Source of the DNA: an uncultured virus (IMG/VR IMGVR_UViG_3300030099_002957)
Lineage: Duplodnaviria > Heunggongvirae > Uroviricota > Caudoviricetes
IMG/VR virus record: IMGVR_UViG_3300030099_002957
Length of the DNA stretch: 24,088 nt
Reading direction: 5' to 3' (one strand)
The stretch's first letter is position 1. Every line of letters begins with the position of its first letter. Position numbers and translations under genes: made by a program. Shown piece after piece: positions 6,053 through 24,088 of the stretch. Below the pieces are notes generated by a model. It saw only the letters and a list, made by a program, of their open reading frames with translations, was not told where the DNA came from and did no database searches.

Positions 6053-7231
6053 TTATTTAATTGTCATTTTGATAATGTGTGGATTCATCATCATTTGGTT
6101 AAACTTCGCTTTATTTCCATTAAATATTGTCCTAACAACAAGATACTTTAAATCGTTAGTAAAATAGCTTCCCGTGCACAGCGTAACGAGACGCTCTTGC
6201 ATTTTTGGCGTTACAGTGTCAGTTTTTGAGTATGCAACAGAGAAATTAGCTATACGAGTAGCTAACAGACTAGCTATATCAGCTCTGTAGTTATCACCCT
6301 TACCTATACACTCAGTTAACTTAGGTAATACCTCCTCTTCTTTGCCAAGAACTATATCCTTTGGTGTAACTAGTTTGTCTAGTTTGTTATTAATAAACGT
6401 CGTAAACATAGAAGCAAACTCATTGCCAACAGAACCCTCACCAATCATTTGAATTAGCGGTAGCTGGTCTTCAAACACTTTTATACTTGATATAGCGTTA
6501 AAGAACGTTGATATAGAACGTGCGTTAGTCTCTTGTGTAACTAGCTCAGGATGCATTAACAAGAAGTTAATACAACGAGTGTCAATGCCATTTTCCTCAG
6601 CCCATCTAGCCCATACATTTATATCAAACTTAAGGTTTGCTGTAATGTAACGAGTCTTCTGAGCAGCATCAACAGAGTTTACCATATAGTCACCATTATC
6701 AGGATTTGCAGTCAAGATAATGTGCCAGTCTTTAGGAAGAGTCCATGATATATATTGCTGTCTATCCACCAACTCCATACATGCTTGGATAAACCTAACA
6801 TCAGCACGGTTCCAGTCATCAAGAAGCAAAACACCACCGGCTTTTTTGTCCGCAATCCACTCCGGTGCACTGTATGACATCTTGCTTTTACCTGTAGTTT
6901 TCCAACCATCACTAGAATAATCTTTTACTGCTACCTCATCAACCCACTTACCTATTTTCTTACCATTTTTTGTAGTCCACATTTGGAACTGTTTTATAGG
7001 GAAGCCTACAAGGTCACCTAACTCCTCAATCTGTGCTAGGTTTAGTTTTACAAAGTCTAGATTGTGGGCCCTAGACATGTCCATAATAGATGTAGTCTTT
7101 CCAATACCAGACTCACCTACAACCTCCACTGCTACAGGCTTTTTGCCTTGTGATTGCAATACACGGTTGTTTGTAATAATATGATCTACAAAGTCCTGCA
7201 GCTCATCAATGTTTAAATTTACTTGGTTCAT
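6053..7231 (-). CDS. MoxR-like AAA+ ATPase
   Basis: Walker A GESGIGKT, Walker B LLLDDWNRA, sensor ILTAN; adjacent vWA gene. Confidence 0.88.
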   Translation of the reverse strand: MNQVNLNIDELQDFVDHIITNNRVLQSQGKKPVAVEVVGESGIGKTTSIMDMSRAHNLDFVKLNLAQIEELGDLVGFPIKQFQMWTTKNGKKIGKWVDEVAVKDYSSDGWKTTGKSKMSYSAPEWIADKKAGGVLLLDDWNRADVRFIQACMELVDRQQYISWTLPKDWHIILTANPDNGDYMVNSVDAAQKTRYITANLKFDINVWARWAEENGIDTRCINFLLMHPELVTQETNARSISTFFNAISSIKVFEDQLPLIQMIGEGSVGNEFASMFTTFINNKLDKLVTPKDIVLGKEEEVLPKLTECIGKGDNYRADIASLLATRIANFSVAYSKTDTVTPKMQERLVTLCTGSYFTNDLKYLVVRTIFNGNKAKFNQMMMNPHIIKMTIK

Positions 7232-7250
7232 AATTATATTGTTTAATTGA

Positions 7251-8423
7251 TTAATTTAATTGAATTTTAATTCCAGTCAACTCTTCGTTGATGCTAGAAC
7301 GTGAGCTATGCACCCACAATGCGTTCTTTGGACAATTGTCCGGGTTAGGAGCCTCACCATCAGTAAGACATATAAAAGCAGAGTATCTATTCTTAGGGTC
7401 ATTGTAGTGATCTGTAACAGCCTGAAAGCATGTACCACCTCTACCTTTTATTTCCCAATGTTTTTTAGGATTAAACTCCTCTACACTAGTCAGCTCTGTG
7501 TCAAACTGTGCAACTGTAATTTTATTGCCAGTTCTATGCATATGTACTAGCTCATTCATAAACTCTACCAGCTCTTTGCTGCTAACGGACCCTGAAGTAT
7601 CAACACCTACAAGCACATGATTTCTATGTTTTATCTTGAGGCCTGGATTACCTGAGTATCTTTTGTTATACTTTCTACGCAGTTTTTTAGTATAGATTTT
7701 AGATGCGTTGTTAATAAACCTTTTAAGATACTGTTTCCAATTGAACTTAGGAGGTTCTATCTTAAATAATTTCTCGATAATTTCTGCAAGTTCCCCCGGT
7801 AGTGTGCCATGTTTCTTTTGTATCTCTTCTGCAGTCTGCTTCATCTGATGCTCATATTGCTTTTGCACTAGCTTCTTTGCTGCCTCAGGTAATTCTGTAA
7901 CCTCTTTCCAATGCTTATGACAATACTGACTATTGCCATCCATCTGGTCTAGTATACCTTGCAATGCATCACAGCTACTGTTTCCATTTTTATCCATAGT
8001 TTGCTGCAGCAGTTTATAATACTCACTCGTACCAGCTTTTCTTGGCAGTCTAAGCTCTTTAAACGTATCCAAAGTTAGCCCGCCAGCTGGCAGCATGTTA
8101 CGATCTATATATTGATTAATTTCTATATCTGCAGCTATGTTAAATAACTTTTTATCAGGATATTTATCTGCCAAGATAAGATGCCCAAAAGCTATATGTA
8201 ATAGCTCATGTTTTAGCAGACCTTGTTGATGTAGCTCACTAAGCTCTGCAAAGAAATCCGGATTTATAACAAGCCGCATTCCTATGCCGTGTTTTCCTAC
8301 ACCTGCAGTATCACAATCTTTAGTGAATTCTTTTTGTAATCCAATAAGGAAGATACCGTAGAAAGGCTCTGAGAATATTAATGTCTTTGATATTCTCGAG
8401 AGTTGATCTTGTACTGTTCTCAT
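7251..8423 (-). CDS. Metallopeptidase-like (HExxH) plus vWA domain protein (DUF2201-like)
   Basis: HELLH motif, NIAADIEINQ, MIDAS DTSGS, GRGGT and LTDG. Confidence 0.88.
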   Translation of the reverse strand: MRTVQDQLSRISKTLIFSEPFYGIFLIGLQKEFTKDCDTAGVGKHGIGMRLVINPDFFAELSELHQQGLLKHELLHIAFGHLILADKYPDKKLFNIAADIEINQYIDRNMLPAGGLTLDTFKELRLPRKAGTSEYYKLLQQTMDKNGNSSCDALQGILDQMDGNSQYCHKHWKEVTELPEAAKKLVQKQYEHQMKQTAEEIQKKHGTLPGELAEIIEKLFKIEPPKFNWKQYLKRFINNASKIYTKKLRRKYNKRYSGNPGLKIKHRNHVLVGVDTSGSVSSKELVEFMNELVHMHRTGNKITVAQFDTELTSVEEFNPKKHWEIKGRGGTCFQAVTDHYNDPKNRYSAFICLTDGEAPNPDNCPKNALWVHSSRSSINEELTGIKIQLN

Positions 8424-18900: not shown

Positions 18901-20790
18901 TTATTTTTCCCAGCAGTTACTAACTGATACCTCAGCTTTTAACAAACCGTTCGTTACTATCTCTAGTGCAGCCTCCTCCATCATTCTTTGCATGTTGTGT
19001 GTCCAATCAGATAAATAATCGTTTCTACATATTGTATCTATCTGATCATGCACAGTCATGACTAGCTTGACAGGCAGGTCAAATTGATTGATATGATTAC
19101 GCATCAATATCAACGCTTTCTTAGTCATATCTGCGCTAGCTCCCTGTATAGGTGTGTTTTTAGATGCACGTTCAATACTACCTAGCTCCATAGATGATGA
19201 CTTGTTATCCCATATTCTAGGATACCAGTTAGTAAACCATCTACGTCTGTTATAAGGAGGAAATGTTTTTATATACCCATATTTCTTACCAAAATTACCT
19301 AGCTTCTCCAAAAATCCTTTAATTGATGGAAAAGCTGTAAAATACTTTTCAATAAGTAATTTAGCATCGTCAACAGAAATGTTGAGAGTGTCTGCAAGTT
19401 TATGAGGACCCATGCCATAAGCCAGGCCAAAATTAATAGTTTTAACATTATTTCTTAGTTTTTTGTGGGAAGGACAATTGCACTTTTGCTTACGACTAAA
19501 ATAAGCACAATCGTCTTCACCACTATTTAACCACTGATCACCATAGACTAACTCAGCACACGTGGAGTGTAGGTCTTCACCATTCTTTAACGCCTCAATC
19601 CATACAGGATCTTTAGAACCAAATGCAATAACATTTAACTCTTGACTAGAATAGTCAGCCGAAACAAAACTCCAACCATCGGGTGCAGTGAAGCAATTCC
19701 TAAAACTATTATCAGCAGGTATTTGCTGCATGTTAGGCTTGCTACTACTTACACGGCCGGTGTCTAATATTTGATGAAAACTAGTATGTATTCTTTTATC
19801 AGAAGCTAGATTCTTAAAAAATGCATCACCATAAGATGTACACAGTTTCATAGCCTCCTTGTATTTTACATACTTGTCTATTAGTGGATATTTAAATCTG
19901 TGTTTGTACATCTGTTTACCATTTACATTATCTAAATCAGGTACAATACACTGAAACACCTCTAGCACTTGCTTTGGTGATGTCCATTTTACATCTACAT
20001 CTCTAAGCTCTTCTACAGGTGTAAACATGTCTGCTTGTATGTATTTAGCCACAAACTTTTGTAATCTGTGATCCATCTTAACCATGTTATCTAATGTAGA
20101 CATCAAAGCATCAGCTTTACTTGTATTTAAACTTTCAAGCTCTCTCCATGCTTCTGTATCTAAATCTAAGCCATTGTACTCCATGTCAGCAAAAGCCTTT
20201 ACTACCTCGTTTTCTAGTTTAACAACATTGTGCAGTTTATATTTATCTATATCTGCTTGTTGTAGCTCTTTTATTTTACATAGGTATTCTACATCCTTTG
20301 CACCATAGATTATCTGATCATCTGTAAAAGGATGTCCATGTAAATCTATAAACAAGTTTCTAACCTCCTTGTTTAGCTCTACATTTAAATATCTTTTACA
20401 TAAATCTTTTAATCCATAACCTAGAGATTTACCACAGCTTATAATTAACTCTACAAGAAATGTATCATAAATACCTTCACAGGTTATATTAGCCCATTTT
20501 TTAATAAACTTGTAATCAAACTTAGCATTGTGAAATATCTTTACAATATCATTTGATTCTAATATCTCTCGTAAAGGCTCTATACTTACAAATCTTGTAT
20601 CTATAATATATTGATTATTAGTATCACCTATCTGAAACATTATCATCTTTTTACATGTAAAGTCAAATCCTTCTGTCTCCGTGTCTACACCCAAAACTTT
20701 CTTAGTTTTACAATATTCTACTACATCATCTATAGTAGCATCTGTAAAGTTTGCGTTTAAACTCTTAGTGTTACTAATAAAGTATATCAT
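18901..20790 (-). CDS. polA: Family A DNA polymerase with 3'-5' exonuclease (no 5'-3' exonuclease domain)
   Basis: Exo motifs DTET, HNAKFD, YGAKD; TGRVSS..PNMQQIP; motif A DYSSQEL; motif B KTINFGLAYG; NTPIQG; motif C VHDQI. Confidence 0.96.
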   Translation of the reverse strand: MIYFISNTKSLNANFTDATIDDVVEYCKTKKVLGVDTETEGFDFTCKKMIMFQIGDTNNQYIIDTRFVSIEPLREILESNDIVKIFHNAKFDYKFIKKWANITCEGIYDTFLVELIISCGKSLGYGLKDLCKRYLNVELNKEVRNLFIDLHGHPFTDDQIIYGAKDVEYLCKIKELQQADIDKYKLHNVVKLENEVVKAFADMEYNGLDLDTEAWRELESLNTSKADALMSTLDNMVKMDHRLQKFVAKYIQADMFTPVEELRDVDVKWTSPKQVLEVFQCIVPDLDNVNGKQMYKHRFKYPLIDKYVKYKEAMKLCTSYGDAFFKNLASDKRIHTSFHQILDTGRVSSSKPNMQQIPADNSFRNCFTAPDGWSFVSADYSSQELNVIAFGSKDPVWIEALKNGEDLHSTCAELVYGDQWLNSGEDDCAYFSRKQKCNCPSHKKLRNNVKTINFGLAYGMGPHKLADTLNISVDDAKLLIEKYFTAFPSIKGFLEKLGNFGKKYGYIKTFPPYNRRRWFTNWYPRIWDNKSSSMELGSIERASKNTPIQGASADMTKKALILMRNHINQFDLPVKLVMTVHDQIDTICRNDYLSDWTHNMQRMMEEAALEIVTNGLLKAEVSVSNCWEK

Positions 20791-22228: not shown

Positions 22229-22339
22229 TTAGTTAATAATATGGTTTTCTATAAGTAATGCAACAATGATAAGTAATATCCCACAATAACTGTAGGATAA
22301 TACTCTCATTGAATATTTGTAACTATCATTTTTATACAT
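22229..22339 (-). CDS. Small hydrophobic peptide (36 aa), absent from the ORF track
   Basis: MYKNDSYKYSMRVLSYSYCGILLIIVALLIENHIIN*; TGATG coupling to the upstream gene; fills the gap. Confidence 0.55.
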   Translation of the reverse strand: MYKNDSYKYSMRVLSYSYCGILLIIVALLIENHIIN

Positions 22340-22566
22340 CATTTTACTTCATTGTCTTTCATCATCTTCTCCATTTCAACGTATAGTTTTTCATAGTCTT
22401 GCTCAAGAGCTTTGTTCTTTTCTTTTAACTCAATAATCTCAAGTTTATATTGAACAGCTTCTGTTGTTAGTCTGTCAACATCTTGCAATGCTCTTGTTAA
22501 TTCTAGATTCTTAGTTCTAATTTTTTGTTCTTCATCATAATTGATGTTGTTAATTGGTAGTGCCAT
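22339..22566 (-). CDS. Coiled-coil protein (75 aa)
   Basis: Heptad-like Leu/Glu/Lys pattern; first gene downstream of the twister ribozyme. Confidence 0.7.
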   Translation of the reverse strand: MALPINNINYDEEQKIRTKNLELTRALQDVDRLTTEAVQYKLEIIELKEKNKALEQDYEKLYVEMEKMMKDNEVK

Positions 22567-23562
22567 GTTTAATTAATTTTAGTTAATATTTTAGCTAATT
22601 GTGCTCACTCTGTATTTTCACGGGCTTGTGACCGTCCTTGGCTACATTAAGCACGAATTAGGGGATTACAAGTCCCAAAGTAATACCATCAGGTTTTTAC
22701 ACCTGTAAATCTCGATACATATTATACATCTCCCAATGTATTCTTATAATTACTAATCCACTTGGACGTCATAATTACATCAAATAATCTACTACAGATT
22801 AAAATATACTATCATCAGTCAAAGGCGTGACATCATAGATAGTTTAGTATCATACTAACAATCAGTTTGTTTTTACTTAATTATTAGTTATTACTTTAGA
22901 TGTATCCAACTGTTAAGTTAGTGAAGCTATAACATTTGTTATAACCTATTCGTCTGGATGACTATACATCTCTGTCCACTCTTGCTAGTACAAGTGTTAA
23001 CGACAGTTCTAATTCTAAGGAGTCTTGCAATACTCCCTACGCTATTCTGTTCTGGTCTCTATTACCGAGTGTGGTAGCCAGTTCCCCTATTTATCCACTT
23101 TTTACTATTAGTCTCCTGTAAGGACACACTAATAGTCATATTTAAAATAAAGAATAGTCCACATGCCTTACGGTTTACCACTGCAGGTTGTTATCCAAGA
23201 CGTTCTACTATTCTTTATTTGTGTTTAGTTAATGTTTAGGTTAAAAACTATCATGAGTGTCTTAGGTAATTATTTAGACTATTAGATACACACGACCTAA
23301 CCAAGACCATTACCCTTGGATCTCTCATGATAGTTATTATAAAACAACAACAGTAAGTTTACTACATGTTCTAGGTGAATATTAGAATATTCGATAAGTT
23401 TTAAATGTGGTTTCATCATCAGAACACTCCACTTTACCTTACCTGTTGTTGTTATAATGCAACCGTTGCCTCTATCTCTGGTCGGTTAACTACTAAGCAC
23501 CAACTAGTATTTATGCTTTTCGTGATTATTATAAGTTGCATTTGATTAGAAATGAACAGTTT
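22567..23562 (-). ncRNA. Array of tandem structured RNA domains (about 12 stem-loop units)
   Basis: No ORF of 60 aa or more. Consecutive inverted repeats with closing stems of up to 14 bp and short A/U linkers; most wobble pairs are G-U on the - strand; contains a twister ribozyme. Confidence 0.7.
22595..22661 (-). ncRNA. Twister self-cleaving ribozyme, type P1 (core 22601..22654)
   Basis: - strand GUGCU UAA UGUA GCC AAGG ACGGUCACAAGCCCGU GAAAA UACA GAG UGAGCAC aligns element by element with the rice twister as recalled (CCGCC UAA CACU GCC AAUG CCGGUCCCAAGCCCGG AUAAA AGUG GAG GGGGCGG), with compensatory changes. Confidence 0.95.
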
Positions 23563-23787
23563 CTACACTTGTTCAGGTGTTATTATTTTGTAACTATGGT
23601 TGTCCCAGAGTTTACGACTACATCTTCTTACAAGTGCAGTTGTTCTTCCTTCTAATGGAGTTTCATGTACATATTCTACAAACTTGTCATGTTTTTTAAC
23701 AAGTATACAATTAGATCTTCCAGACTCCATGTTAATTATTATACATCCTTCATTTCCTAAAGAGTATTCATTCATATTTATTCTCAT
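23563..23787 (-). CDS. Hypothetical protein (74 aa)
   Basis: ORF with A-rich leader immediately upstream of the RNA array. Confidence 0.6.
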   Translation of the reverse strand: MRINMNEYSLGNEGCIIINMESGRSNCILVKKHDKFVEYVHETPLEGRTTALVRRCSRKLWDNHSYKIITPEQV

Positions 23788-23938
23788 AGTGTTATATTGT
23801 ATTATATTAGTATTCTAGTTAATTGTCAAATTGTGTAGAAAAGTGGTGAATGTGATGTGGTACACACACTAACGAACAGTGTAATATACCACCCCACCCA
23901 TAGATTAGTAACAACATTGTTACAATCCCCACCTATAT

Positions 23939-23965
23939 AAAAAAAAGAAGAAGTCCTTAGACTTC
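23939..23965 (-). terminator. Intrinsic terminator overlapping a stop codon
   Basis: - strand GAAGUC-UAAG-GACUUC followed by UUCUUUUUUUU. Confidence 0.7.
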
Positions 23966-24088
23966 AACTTTTAGTGGTTTACCAGAATTGATTTCGTCCC
24001 AACGGGCGAAAGCAGATTCAAGACTGGTGTACACAACTTTTTCTTTGGTGTGAGTATCAGTTTTGGAATCAAAGGATTCTTCCGTGAT
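23957..24088 (-). CDS. 3' end of a gene truncated by the window edge
   Basis: Open frame ITEESFDSKTDTHTKEKVVYTSLESAFARWDEINSGKPLKVEV* ending in a terminator. Confidence 0.6.
   Translation of the reverse strand: MTEESFDSKTDTHTKEKVVYTSLESAFARWDEINSGKPLKVEV

What the first reader, a model, noticed from the sequence alone, without database searches (positions are those of the whole stretch)
23343..23453. Multi-stem pseudoknotted RNA domain, candidate new ribozyme or aptamer
Seen (- strand): 11-bp outer stem AACAACAACAG/CUGUUGUUGUU plus UAAG/CUUA; inner stem UGUUCU/AGAACA closing a junction with hairpins GAUGA/UUAUC and GAAUAU/AUAUUC. The loop CCAC can pair with GUGG in the 5' internal-loop strand, forming a pseudoknot. 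It also contains CUGAUGAUGAAAC, i.e. hammerhead core words without a stem II. Inference: size and topology are like small self-cleaving ribozymes, but I cannot match a known class.
Basis: partly seen in the sequence, partly recalled or inferred. Interest (0 to 1): 0.7.

Follow-up and report, generated by a model that had tools for sequence, protein, structure and literature searches.

The report
New pseudoknotted RNA family in marine phages
The flagged stretch is one copy of a previously undescribed, strongly conserved small folded RNA carried by uncultivated marine phages; its fold is well supported but its job (binding something, or cutting itself) still has to be tested at the bench.

Summary

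It belongs to a family. I collected 33 distinct members, mostly from marine phage and metagenome contigs. The plan is a closing helix P1/P1a, an inner helix P2, and three nearly invariant words: AAGGUAAAGUGGAG, ACCACAUYUAAAA and UGUAGUAAACUU.

- **Helices:** P1 and P2 covary.
- **Pseudoknot:** GUGG and CCAC are invariant in 33 of 33, so covariation cannot test the pairing. In one rearranged relative (L083) they form a plain hairpin.
- **Not conserved:** the two inner hairpins and the hammerhead-like words lie in variable loops.
- **Known families:** no Rfam 15 family matches.
- **Copy number:** one copy in each of three phage records.
- **Context:** it is intergenic, tied to no gene family, and absent or relocated in close relatives.
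- **Neighbours:** a twister ribozyme candidate lies 690 nt downstream.

Function is unproven. My best guess is an autonomous binding RNA of aptamer type (0.38). A new self-cleaving ribozyme class is the main rival (0.22).

The parts
23343..23453 (-). Whole element, the only copy of the family in the window
   Evidence: Covariance model R1 scores it 93.1 bits (E 9e-20). The next best place in the window, with filters off, scores 15 bits. Fold.
23443..23453 (-). P1 5' strand (AACAACAACAG); G23442 is a bulge
   Evidence: Pairs with 23343-23353. In the P1/P1a helix, 10 of 15 pairs (A2) and 11 of 15 (A3) change on both sides.
23343..23353 (-). P1 3' strand (CUGUUGUUGUU), followed by a U-rich run
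23438..23441 (-). P1a 5' strand (UAAG), the start of the invariant 5' word
   Evidence: Pairs with CUUA 23354-23357. U-A changes to C-G in 3 members (L062, L068, L077) and A-U to G-U in 3.
23354..23357 (-). P1a 3' strand (CUUA)
23427..23437 (-). Invariant junction strand GUAAA-GUGG-AG; GUGG is 23429-23432
   Evidence: Invariant in 33 of 33 members. This held in the scans whose pattern did not demand it: 30 of 30 hits, and the 12 true hits.
23422..23426 (-). P2 5' strand (UGUUC)
   Evidence: Pairs with GAACA 23367-23371. All 5 pairs change on both sides.
23367..23371 (-). P2 3' strand (GAACA)
23411..23421 (-). Variable loop L2; here it holds the hammerhead-like words
   Evidence: Length and sequence differ in every lineage, and several members carry an extra hairpin here. 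The loop is not conserved.
23399..23411 (-). Invariant middle word ACCAC-AUUUAAAA; CCAC is 23407-23410
   Evidence: ACCAC is invariant in 33 of 33 even where no pattern demanded it. It is complementary to GUGG. In L083 the two words form a simple hairpin.
23372..23398 (-). Variable loop L3 with an optional hairpin (GAAUAU/AUAUUC, 23377-23392)
   Evidence: An insert at this site occurs only in the window, L023, L040 and L049. In L083 the RNA ends lie at this site.
23358..23366 (-). Invariant junction strand UGUAGUAAA
   Evidence: The core GUAGUAAA is invariant except G to C at one position in L062 and L068; the leading U and G each vary in a few members. This word was left free in the scan.
23313..23571 (-). 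Stretch covered without a break by contigs of two RNA libraries
   Evidence: X12 record 2 covers 23325-23559 and X13 record 4 covers 23313-23571. Both runs come from one study. Contigs show presence only; they cannot show RNA ends.
23801..23829 (-). Upstream sigma-70-type promoter match (TTGACA, 17 nt, TATAAT)
   Evidence: 12 of 12 consensus matches. It is the nearest promoter-like site that could drive transcription through the element.
22602..22653 (-). Twister-P1 ribozyme candidate in the same ORF-free island
   Evidence: Rfam RF03160 scores 54.8 bits, E 3e-12 to 4e-11, below the gathering score of 67.2. The match spans the full model but lacks the optional stem.

Best explanation
Shown: the element is the window's single copy of a previously undescribed family of small structured RNAs. 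The family occurs in uncultivated, mostly marine phages. Several hosts of the element are relatives of this window's phage, whose DNA polymerase is distantly crAss-like.

The fold has four parts.
- A closing helix, P1/P1a.
- An inner helix, P2.
- Three nearly invariant single-stranded words.
- Two sites that accept optional hairpins.

Inferred fold: GUGG pairs with CCAC. P2 then pairs that hairpin's loop with the strand after the A-rich tract AUYUAAAA. This gives an H-type pseudoknot clamped by P1. The invariant strands GUAAA and UGUAGUAAA pack against it to make a pocket.

Inferred function: the RNA works on its own, through this tertiary fold. It is made as a small early transcript or transcript domain. 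It binds a partner, either a small molecule or a protein, and so acts as a sensor or decoy. It does not regulate one particular neighbouring gene. The partner is unknown.
For: Family and fold:
- There are 33 distinct members, scoring 62.8-97.9 bits with R1.
- P1 and P2 covary.
- The three words stay invariant in scans that left each one free in turn.
- L083 keeps all three words in a rearranged order. P1 is capped by a loop, the ends are closed by a new helix, and GUGG/CCAC forms a plain hairpin. The fold therefore matters more than the order of the parts.

Autonomy:
- One copy each in records of 55.6, 93.1 (complete by CheckV) and 73.3 kb.
- No shared neighbour gene family. The largest downstream cluster is 4 of 27 downstream ORFs.
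- Close relatives lack the element (L002, L003) or carry it in a different intergenic gap (L004).
- In two unrelated phages it lies about 100 nt downstream of a canonical intrinsic terminator on the same strand: L057:7017-7037 and L086:3612-3628. That placement fits a separate small transcription unit.
- Contigs of two RNA libraries span the whole element unbroken.

Orientation: it mostly follows the flanking small ORFs. G-U pairs in P1a and P2 fit folding of this strand.
Against: - No ligand, protein partner or binding data exist.
- The pseudoknot has no covariation: all 4 pairs are invariant in 33 of 33.
- The family was collected with exact-word patterns, so the apparent invariance is inflated and divergent members are missing.
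- No promoter was found between the terminators and the element by the sigma-70 scan in L057.
- RNA-library contigs may contain DNA and cannot show RNA ends.
- According to passages of PMC10085705, rearranged natural forms of small RNAs are known mainly for ribozymes. That favours the main rival.
Confidence: 0.38

Rival explanations
1. It is a new class of small self-cleaving ribozyme. The invariant junction and pseudoknot would form the active site. Cleavage would process phage early transcripts, as is proposed for the twister 690 nt downstream.
For: - Its size and build (variable stems, conserved junctions, possible pseudoknot, optional peripheral hairpins) resemble known small ribozymes.
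- In the window it shares an ORF-free island with a twister candidate.
- In L050 a weak Hammerhead_1 match lies about 125 nt downstream on the same strand (29 bits, gathering score 34, E 0.003).
- Passages of PMC6765202 say the newer ribozyme classes were found because ribozymes cluster in the same phage-associated neighbourhoods.
- L083 looks like a natural circular permutation. Passages of PMC10085705 list such permutations only for hammerhead and twister ribozymes, 5S rRNA and group II introns.
Against: - The association with known ribozymes is weak: the window's own twister, one weak hammerhead among 35 further loci scanned, and none.
- Contigs of two RNA libraries bridge the whole element. 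This is weak evidence, because one RNA contig also bridges the twister.
- The permuted form is a single sequence with almost no P2.
- No cleavage site can be named.
- From recall, most conserved motifs found beside ribozymes did not cleave when tested.
Confidence: 0.22
2. It is an RNA processing or stability element. The folded knot would sit at the end of an upstream message and block exonucleases, or be recognised by a host or phage RNase. This would be comparable to the RNase III hairpins between early genes of T7 (recalled).
For: - It often begins within a few to about 20 nt of the upstream stop codon: gaps of -3 to 18 nt in L040, L035, L047 and L052.
- It has a long closing helix followed by a U-rich run.
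- It lies among other long-stem hairpin modules in the same island.
Against: - About 35 invariant unpaired nucleotides are far more than a stability hairpin needs.
- In G002 and G004 it follows a terminator rather than a gene end.
- It occurs once per genome, although these phages have many operons.
Confidence: 0.12
3. It is a cis-acting riboswitch or attenuator. Ligand binding would stabilise P1, which together with the following U-run would act as a terminator controlling the downstream gene.
For: - The H-type pseudoknot with an A-rich third strand has the same topology as small aptamers such as preQ1-I and SAM-II (recalled).
- P1 is followed by a U-rich run in many members.
- A downstream ORF on the same strand often starts 30-110 nt away.
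Against: - Downstream genes are unrelated to each other; the largest cluster is 4 of 27 downstream ORFs.
- L014, L024 and L044 have no U-run.
- In the window the next gene is 776 nt away.
- The permuted L083 form breaks the logic of P1 acting as the switch.
- No riboswitch model hits.
Confidence: 0.08
4. It acts as DNA: a single-strand replication or recombination signal, or a miniature mobile element whose P1 strands are terminal inverted repeats.
For: - It is present, absent or relocated among close relatives.
- The same interior occurs with different P1 stems: L011, L035 and L043.
- It lies 2.5 kb from the DNA polymerase gene.
Against: - There is one copy per genome.
- P1 changes sequence while keeping pairing, which transposase-bound ends would not do.
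- G-U pairs would be C-A mismatches on the other strand.
- It is present in contigs of RNA libraries.
Confidence: 0.03

Closest known systems
Small self-cleaving ribozymes of phage-associated intergenic regions (twister, hammerhead, pistol, hatchet, twister-sister)
   Same: - Size of 60-110 nt.
- Variable stems around conserved junction nucleotides, and a possible pseudoknot.
- Optional peripheral hairpins.
- Sporadic intergenic occurrence in phages.
- A twister candidate in the same island.
- One apparently permuted form.
   Different: No Rfam model of any of these classes matches. The hammerhead-like words are private to this copy. No cleavage site or activity is known. Co-occurrence with known ribozymes is rare.
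H-type pseudoknot aptamers (preQ1-I, SAM-II/SAM-V riboswitches; topology recalled, not computed)
   Same: A hairpin (GUGG/CCAC) is followed by an A-rich strand. The following strand pairs back into the hairpin loop (P2). The nucleotides around the knot are highly conserved.
   Different: The core is enclosed by an extra long helix, P1/P1a, with two more invariant strands. The loop between P2 and CCAC is long and variable. It is not tied to any gene family. The Rfam models do not hit.
Orphan structured RNAs of phages and marine metagenomes (for example GOLLD and ROOL, which passages of PMC5737381 place near tRNAs and in prophages)
   Same: It is phage-borne, of unknown function, sits in ORF-free islands, and in G003 lies 230 nt upstream of a tRNA-Leu gene.
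   Different: It is about ten times smaller. There is no sequence or model match. It has its own distinct conserved words.
The 10,006 candidate structured RNAs predicted from IMG/VR (Fremin et al. 2023, PMC10690425; abstract and outline seen)
   Same: The source collection is the same, so the motif could be among their unnamed candidates.
   Different: I could not check this. Motif words and six contig ids were not found in the readable supplement files. The alignment archives could not be read.

Membership tests
Hammerhead ribozyme | Conserved catalytic core words flanking a stem II, within a three-stem junction | tested here: not met
   The core-like words abut with no stem II between them. 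They lie in variable loop L2 and are absent from the other 32 members.
Hammerhead ribozyme | Match to the Rfam hammerhead covariance models | tested here: not met
   No hammerhead hit at E<=10, either on 22300-24088 or on the element alone.
Any Rfam 15 family (4227 models, including twister, pistol, hatchet, twister-sister, HDV-like and riboswitch classes) | Covariance-model match | tested here: not met
   No hit at gathering score in the window. On the element alone, only C/D-box snoRNA and CRISPR-repeat noise appears, at E 1.5-9.
Self-cleaving ribozyme (as a functional kind) | Site-specific self-scission giving 2',3'-cyclic phosphate and 5'-OH ends | not testable with these tools
   Only assembled contigs of RNA libraries were available, and they cannot show ends.
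Self-cleaving ribozyme (as a functional kind) | Recurrent neighbourhood with other ribozyme classes | tested here: inconclusive
   Twister in the window and in L002. One weak hammerhead in L050. Nothing in the other scanned loci.
Riboswitch (cis-regulatory aptamer) | Consistent position in the 5' leader of a gene family related to the ligand | tested here: not met
   Downstream ORFs fall into many unrelated groups; the largest holds 4 of 27 downstream ORFs. In G002 and G004 the element follows a terminator.
Riboswitch (cis-regulatory aptamer) | Ligand-dependent structural change | not testable with these tools
   This needs in-line probing or a similar assay.
The new family itself (model R1) | P1/P1a and P2 helices supported by compensatory change | tested here: met
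   A2: 15 of 24 pairs change on both sides, 93.2% of cells paired, 0 of 500 shuffles reach it. A3: 16 of 24 and 95.2%. RNAalifold agrees.
The new family itself (model R1) | GUGG/CCAC pseudoknot | tested here: inconclusive
   Both words are invariant in 33 of 33, so covariation is impossible. Indirect support: in L083 they form a simple hairpin.
Miniature inverted-repeat mobile element | Many copies per genome with conserved terminal repeats | tested here: not met
   One copy in each of three records and one in the window. P1 varies in sequence.

The most novel reading that the evidence does not exclude
The motif is a new class of self-cleaving ribozyme of marine phages. It would occur in at least two natural topologies: open at P1, or open at the optional L3 stem as in L083. 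Together with the downstream twister it would cut a cassette of non-coding RNAs out of early phage transcripts.
Probability: 0.2. Interest if true: 0.9.

Novelty: new variant of a known kind. Interest (0 to 1): 0.68.

Why it matters
- **Rare kind of RNA.** Small RNAs with dozens of invariant unpaired nucleotides, covarying helices and tolerance for inserted hairpins have, in past cases, nearly always turned out to be catalysts, ligand sensors or specific protein partners. This one matches no described family. It is confined, as far as these searches reach, to uncultivated marine phages, whose non-coding repertoire is almost unexplored.
- **Easy to test.** The element is compact: the shortest members are about 60 nt of core. 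A cleavage assay and ligand probing could be set up directly.
- **Possible new ribozyme class.** If it cleaves, it adds a ribozyme class that would already have a natural permutation.
- **Possible new phage strategy.** If it binds a metabolite or a host protein, it points to an RNA-based sensing or decoy strategy in phage early infection.
- **A wider pattern.** The surrounding island is a swap-in, swap-out cassette array of hairpin-closed RNAs ending in a twister. This suggests a broader, undescribed organisation of phage non-coding RNA.

Tried and rejected
- **Hammerhead reading:** rejected. The words are not conserved and no model hits.
- **Rfam:** nothing for the element at gathering score, at E<=10 on 1.8 kb or on 146 nt.
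- **GenBank phages (blastn):** with the 1.6-kb region and with the element at E<=10, only short chance matches.
- **Species genomes:** the scan of 185,579 genomes gave 2 hits (a Bacteroidetes and an Oscillospiraceae assembly). Neither matches R1, so both are chance.
- **Other chance pattern hits, dropped:** L018 and L070/L075, which are identical and coding.
- **A wasted scan:** a pattern with a fixed N run plus two variable gaps returned 0 hits although matches exist.
- **Earlier findings of this scan:** none by sequence, place or words.
- **Literature, motif words:** 18 papers, all unrelated primer-type matches.
- **Literature, other searches:** ribozyme and phage-RNA searches gave no description of this motif. 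The 2026 preprint on about 150 new ribozyme classes has none of the words in its main text. The Fremin et al. supplements could be checked only in part.
- **RNA libraries, uncovered parts:** the contigs of X12 and X13 do not cover the ORFs flanking the element, and stop at 23559/23571 and 23325/23313. I first read this as a discrete stable RNA. Uncovered parts and contig ends are not evidence, so I do not use it.
- **RNA libraries, twister:** one X20 contig ends at 22651, close to the expected twister cleavage site (site recalled). This is a single observation, so I do not use it.
- **29-codon ORF:** the ORF 23541-23452 that ends at P1 is not kept in G002, where its counterpart, read by eye, has an early stop. 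I treat it as non-coding.
- **G002 promoter:** a downstream promoter seen by eye in G002 did not pass the scan's criteria and is dropped.
- **Shared partner gene:** none found between the window phage, G002 and G003.

Full report
**1. The observation**

- P1: AACAACAACAG/CUGUUGUUGUU.
- P1a: UAAG/CUUA.
- Inner stem: UGUUC(U)/(A)GAACA.
- The two small hairpins.
- GUGG and CCAC.
- The run CUGAUGAUGAAAC.

The minimum-free-energy fold has exactly these nested helices: -26.7 kcal/mol against -17.99 +/- 3.17 for 200 shuffles, z -2.75, with 1 shuffle as good. A single fold at that level is only suggestive. The case rests on comparison with relatives.

**2. Setting**

The window is a phage replication module.
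- It holds a family A DNA polymerase at 18901-20790, a UDG-like protein, helicases and a primase, all on the minus strand.
- The polymerase's best matches among GenBank phages are crAss-like phages, at no more than 30% identity.
- The sequencing runs that hold the stretch are labelled as marine metagenomes.
- The element lies in a 996-nt ORF-free island, 23562-22567. The island folds into a row of long-stem hairpin domains (z -3.57).
- Upstream are a terminator-like hairpin (23965-23950) and a perfect sigma-70-type promoter match (23829-23801).
- At the far end of the island, Rfam finds a full-length twister-P1 match at 22653-22602. It scores 54.8 bits (E 4e-11), below the gathering score of 67.2, and lacks the optional stem.

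**3. The island is modular**

I reached relatives through the 211-aa ORF and compared them with blastn.
- L003 joins 23786 directly to 22591, so it lacks the whole island.
- L002 (95% protein identity) lacks 23544-23226, element included, and carries a different hairpin-closed module there. It keeps 23225-23138 and 23045-22576.
- L004 carries a 70%-identical copy of the element in a different intergenic gap. It has compensatory changes in P1 and P2.

**4. The family**

I scanned with patterns built from the conserved words.
- **IMG/VR, first pattern:** 7 loci, all real.
- **IMG/VR, pattern free at GUGG and CCAC:** 8 loci, of which 7 are real and 1 (L018) is a coding chance hit.
- **Metagenome collection, similar pattern:** 30 loci, and all 30 carry GUGGAG and ACCAC although neither was demanded.
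- **Pattern free at the 3' word:** found L062 and L068. They have one change in that word (G to C) and P1a changed from UAAG/CUUA to CAAG/CUUG.
- **Pattern free at the 5' word:** 14 loci. Twelve are real, with the 5' word intact. These include L073, L076 and L077, which have long L2 inserts. Two identical loci are coding chance hits.
- **Total:** 33 distinct sequences match model R1 at 62.8-97.9 bits.
- **Species genomes:** the 185,579 genomes gave only 2 chance hits.
- **GenBank phages:** none.

**5. Structure**

The consensus is: P1 (8-11 bp), one bulged nucleotide, P1a, GUAAA, GUGG, AG, P2 (5 bp), variable L2, A-CCAC-AUYUAAAA, variable L3, P2', UGUAGUAAA, P1a', P1'.

- **MAFFT alignment A2 (28 sequences):** 93.2% of cells pair, against 81.6 +/- 0.8% in shuffles (0 of 500) and 31-52% with slid partners. 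Fifteen of 24 pairs change on both sides, including all 5 pairs of P2.
- **RNAalifold:** predicts P1, P1a and P2 independently, and adds a G-U/G-C pair to P2.
- **Model-fitted alignment A3 (33 sequences):** 95.2% of cells pair and 16 of 24 pairs change on both sides. This alignment leans towards the model.
- **Pseudoknot:** the four GUGG/CCAC pairs never vary (33 of 33), so covariation says nothing about them.
- **Variable loops:** L2 and L3 differ completely between lineages and hold optional hairpins.
- **Caveat:** every member was found with exact words, so conservation is overstated and divergent members are unseen.

**6. A rearranged relative**

A search for the 3' word placed upstream of the 5' word gave one locus, L083, in a 70.6-kb record. 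Its order is:
- an outer helix strand;
- 13 nt;
- UAGUAAACUU;
- a capped P1 hairpin (6 bp, 6-nt loop);
- C-AAGGUAAAGUGGAG;
- UAA;
- ACCACAUCUAAAA;
- 8 nt;
- the other outer helix strand.

This is what a circular permutation would look like if it were opened at the optional L3 stem and closed at P1. P2 is reduced to at most 2-3 possible pairs. Here GUGG and CCAC form an ordinary hairpin in the predicted fold. That is the only independent hint that they pair. It is one sequence with no covariation, and R1 scores it only 23.8 bits.

**7. Copy number and context**

- One copy each in G001 (55.6 kb), G002 (93.1 kb, complete by CheckV) and G003 (73.3 kb). There is one copy in the window with filters off.
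- G002, G005 and G006 are relatives of the window phage: polymerase identity is 70%, 77% and 57%. G003 shares no detectable protein within 14 kb. G004 has no polymerase match.
- The element is always intergenic and mostly co-oriented with the flanking small ORFs.
- Neighbouring genes form no common family.
- In G003 it lies in a 940-nt ORF-free island, 230 nt upstream of tRNA-Leu.
- In G002 and G004 it lies about 100 nt downstream of a canonical intrinsic terminator on the same strand.
- Known ribozymes within the fetched flanks are few: twister in the window and L002, and one weak hammerhead in L050. Nothing else appeared in the 35 loci scanned or in L056, L057 and L086.

**8. RNA data**

Only assembled contigs were available. 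In two RNA libraries from one study, single contigs cover 23325-23559 and 23313-23571, so they run across the whole element without a break. This shows presence in RNA libraries, and that at least some molecules are uncut. It does not show ends, strand or abundance. One RNA contig also bridges the twister.

**9. Explanation**

Shown:
- It is a conserved, autonomously placed, single-copy RNA fold.
- Two of its helices are proven by covariation.
- About 35 nearly invariant unpaired nucleotides sit around a possible H-type pseudoknot.

Inferred:
- The fold makes a pocket.
- The RNA acts through that pocket, not through any specific neighbouring gene.

I put 0.38 on a non-catalytic binding RNA, meaning a sensor or decoy for a small molecule or protein. 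The reasons are its separate-unit placement after terminators, its independence from neighbouring genes, and the uncut molecules.

I put 0.22 on a new self-cleaving ribozyme. The reasons are its architecture, the twister next door and the apparently permuted form. Passages of PMC10085705 say natural circular permutations of RNAs are known only for hammerhead and twister ribozymes, 5S rRNA and group II introns. Passages of PMC6765202 describe how ribozyme classes cluster in phage-associated neighbourhoods.

Lower weights go to:
- a processing or stability element (0.12);
- a classical riboswitch (0.08);
- a DNA-level element (0.03).

**10. Novelty**

No Rfam 15 family matches, and none of my five literature searches found a description of this motif. 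It may sit unnamed among the 10,006 candidates of Fremin et al. 2023. Their alignments could not be read here. I rate it as a new class within the known kind of small pseudoknotted functional RNAs.

Noticed in passing
window 22602-22653 (-): Full-length twister-P1 ribozyme match (54.8 bits, E 4e-11, below the gathering score of 67.2, optional stem missing). It sits at the 3' edge of the 1.2-kb insertion that L003 lacks, just upstream of the 75-aa ORF. L002 has the same match (56.2 bits).
   Followed up: partly
window 22576-23045 (-): An ORF-free block of about 470 nt ending in the twister. It is conserved in L002 (97%) and L042 (76% over 413 nt). Contigs of RNA libraries from three studies cover it. 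It is a candidate larger non-coding RNA.
   Followed up: partly
window 23334-23247, 23219-23146, 23136-23104 (-); L002:2508-2592: Further hairpin-closed modules, with closing stems of 9-13 bp, follow the element. They are present or absent independently in close relatives. L002 carries a different module at the element's site. The arrangement looks like a cassette array of small structured RNAs.
   Followed up: partly
window 23545-23587 (-): A block of about 40 nt is repeated in many related loci. By eye it comprises a conserved gene end, a small hairpin (GAACA/UGUUC) and a U-rich run. Its role is unknown.
   Followed up: no
window 23801-23829 and 23950-23965 (-): A perfect sigma-70-type promoter match (12 of 12) lies 120 nt downstream of an intrinsic-terminator-like hairpin. 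Similar promoter regions recur in related loci.
   Followed up: no
L050:809-861 (-): Weak Hammerhead_1 match (29 bits, gathering score 34, E 0.003) about 125 nt downstream of that locus's copy of the element, on the same strand.
   Followed up: no
L056:6530-7470 (G003): A 940-nt ORF-free island holds the element (6857-6943) and tRNA-Leu(UAA) (7170-7255). Two more tRNAs lie 5 kb further on.
   Followed up: partly
The DNA search: A pattern with a fixed run of N plus two variable gaps returns no hits even where matches exist. This cost one capped scan.
   Followed up: yes
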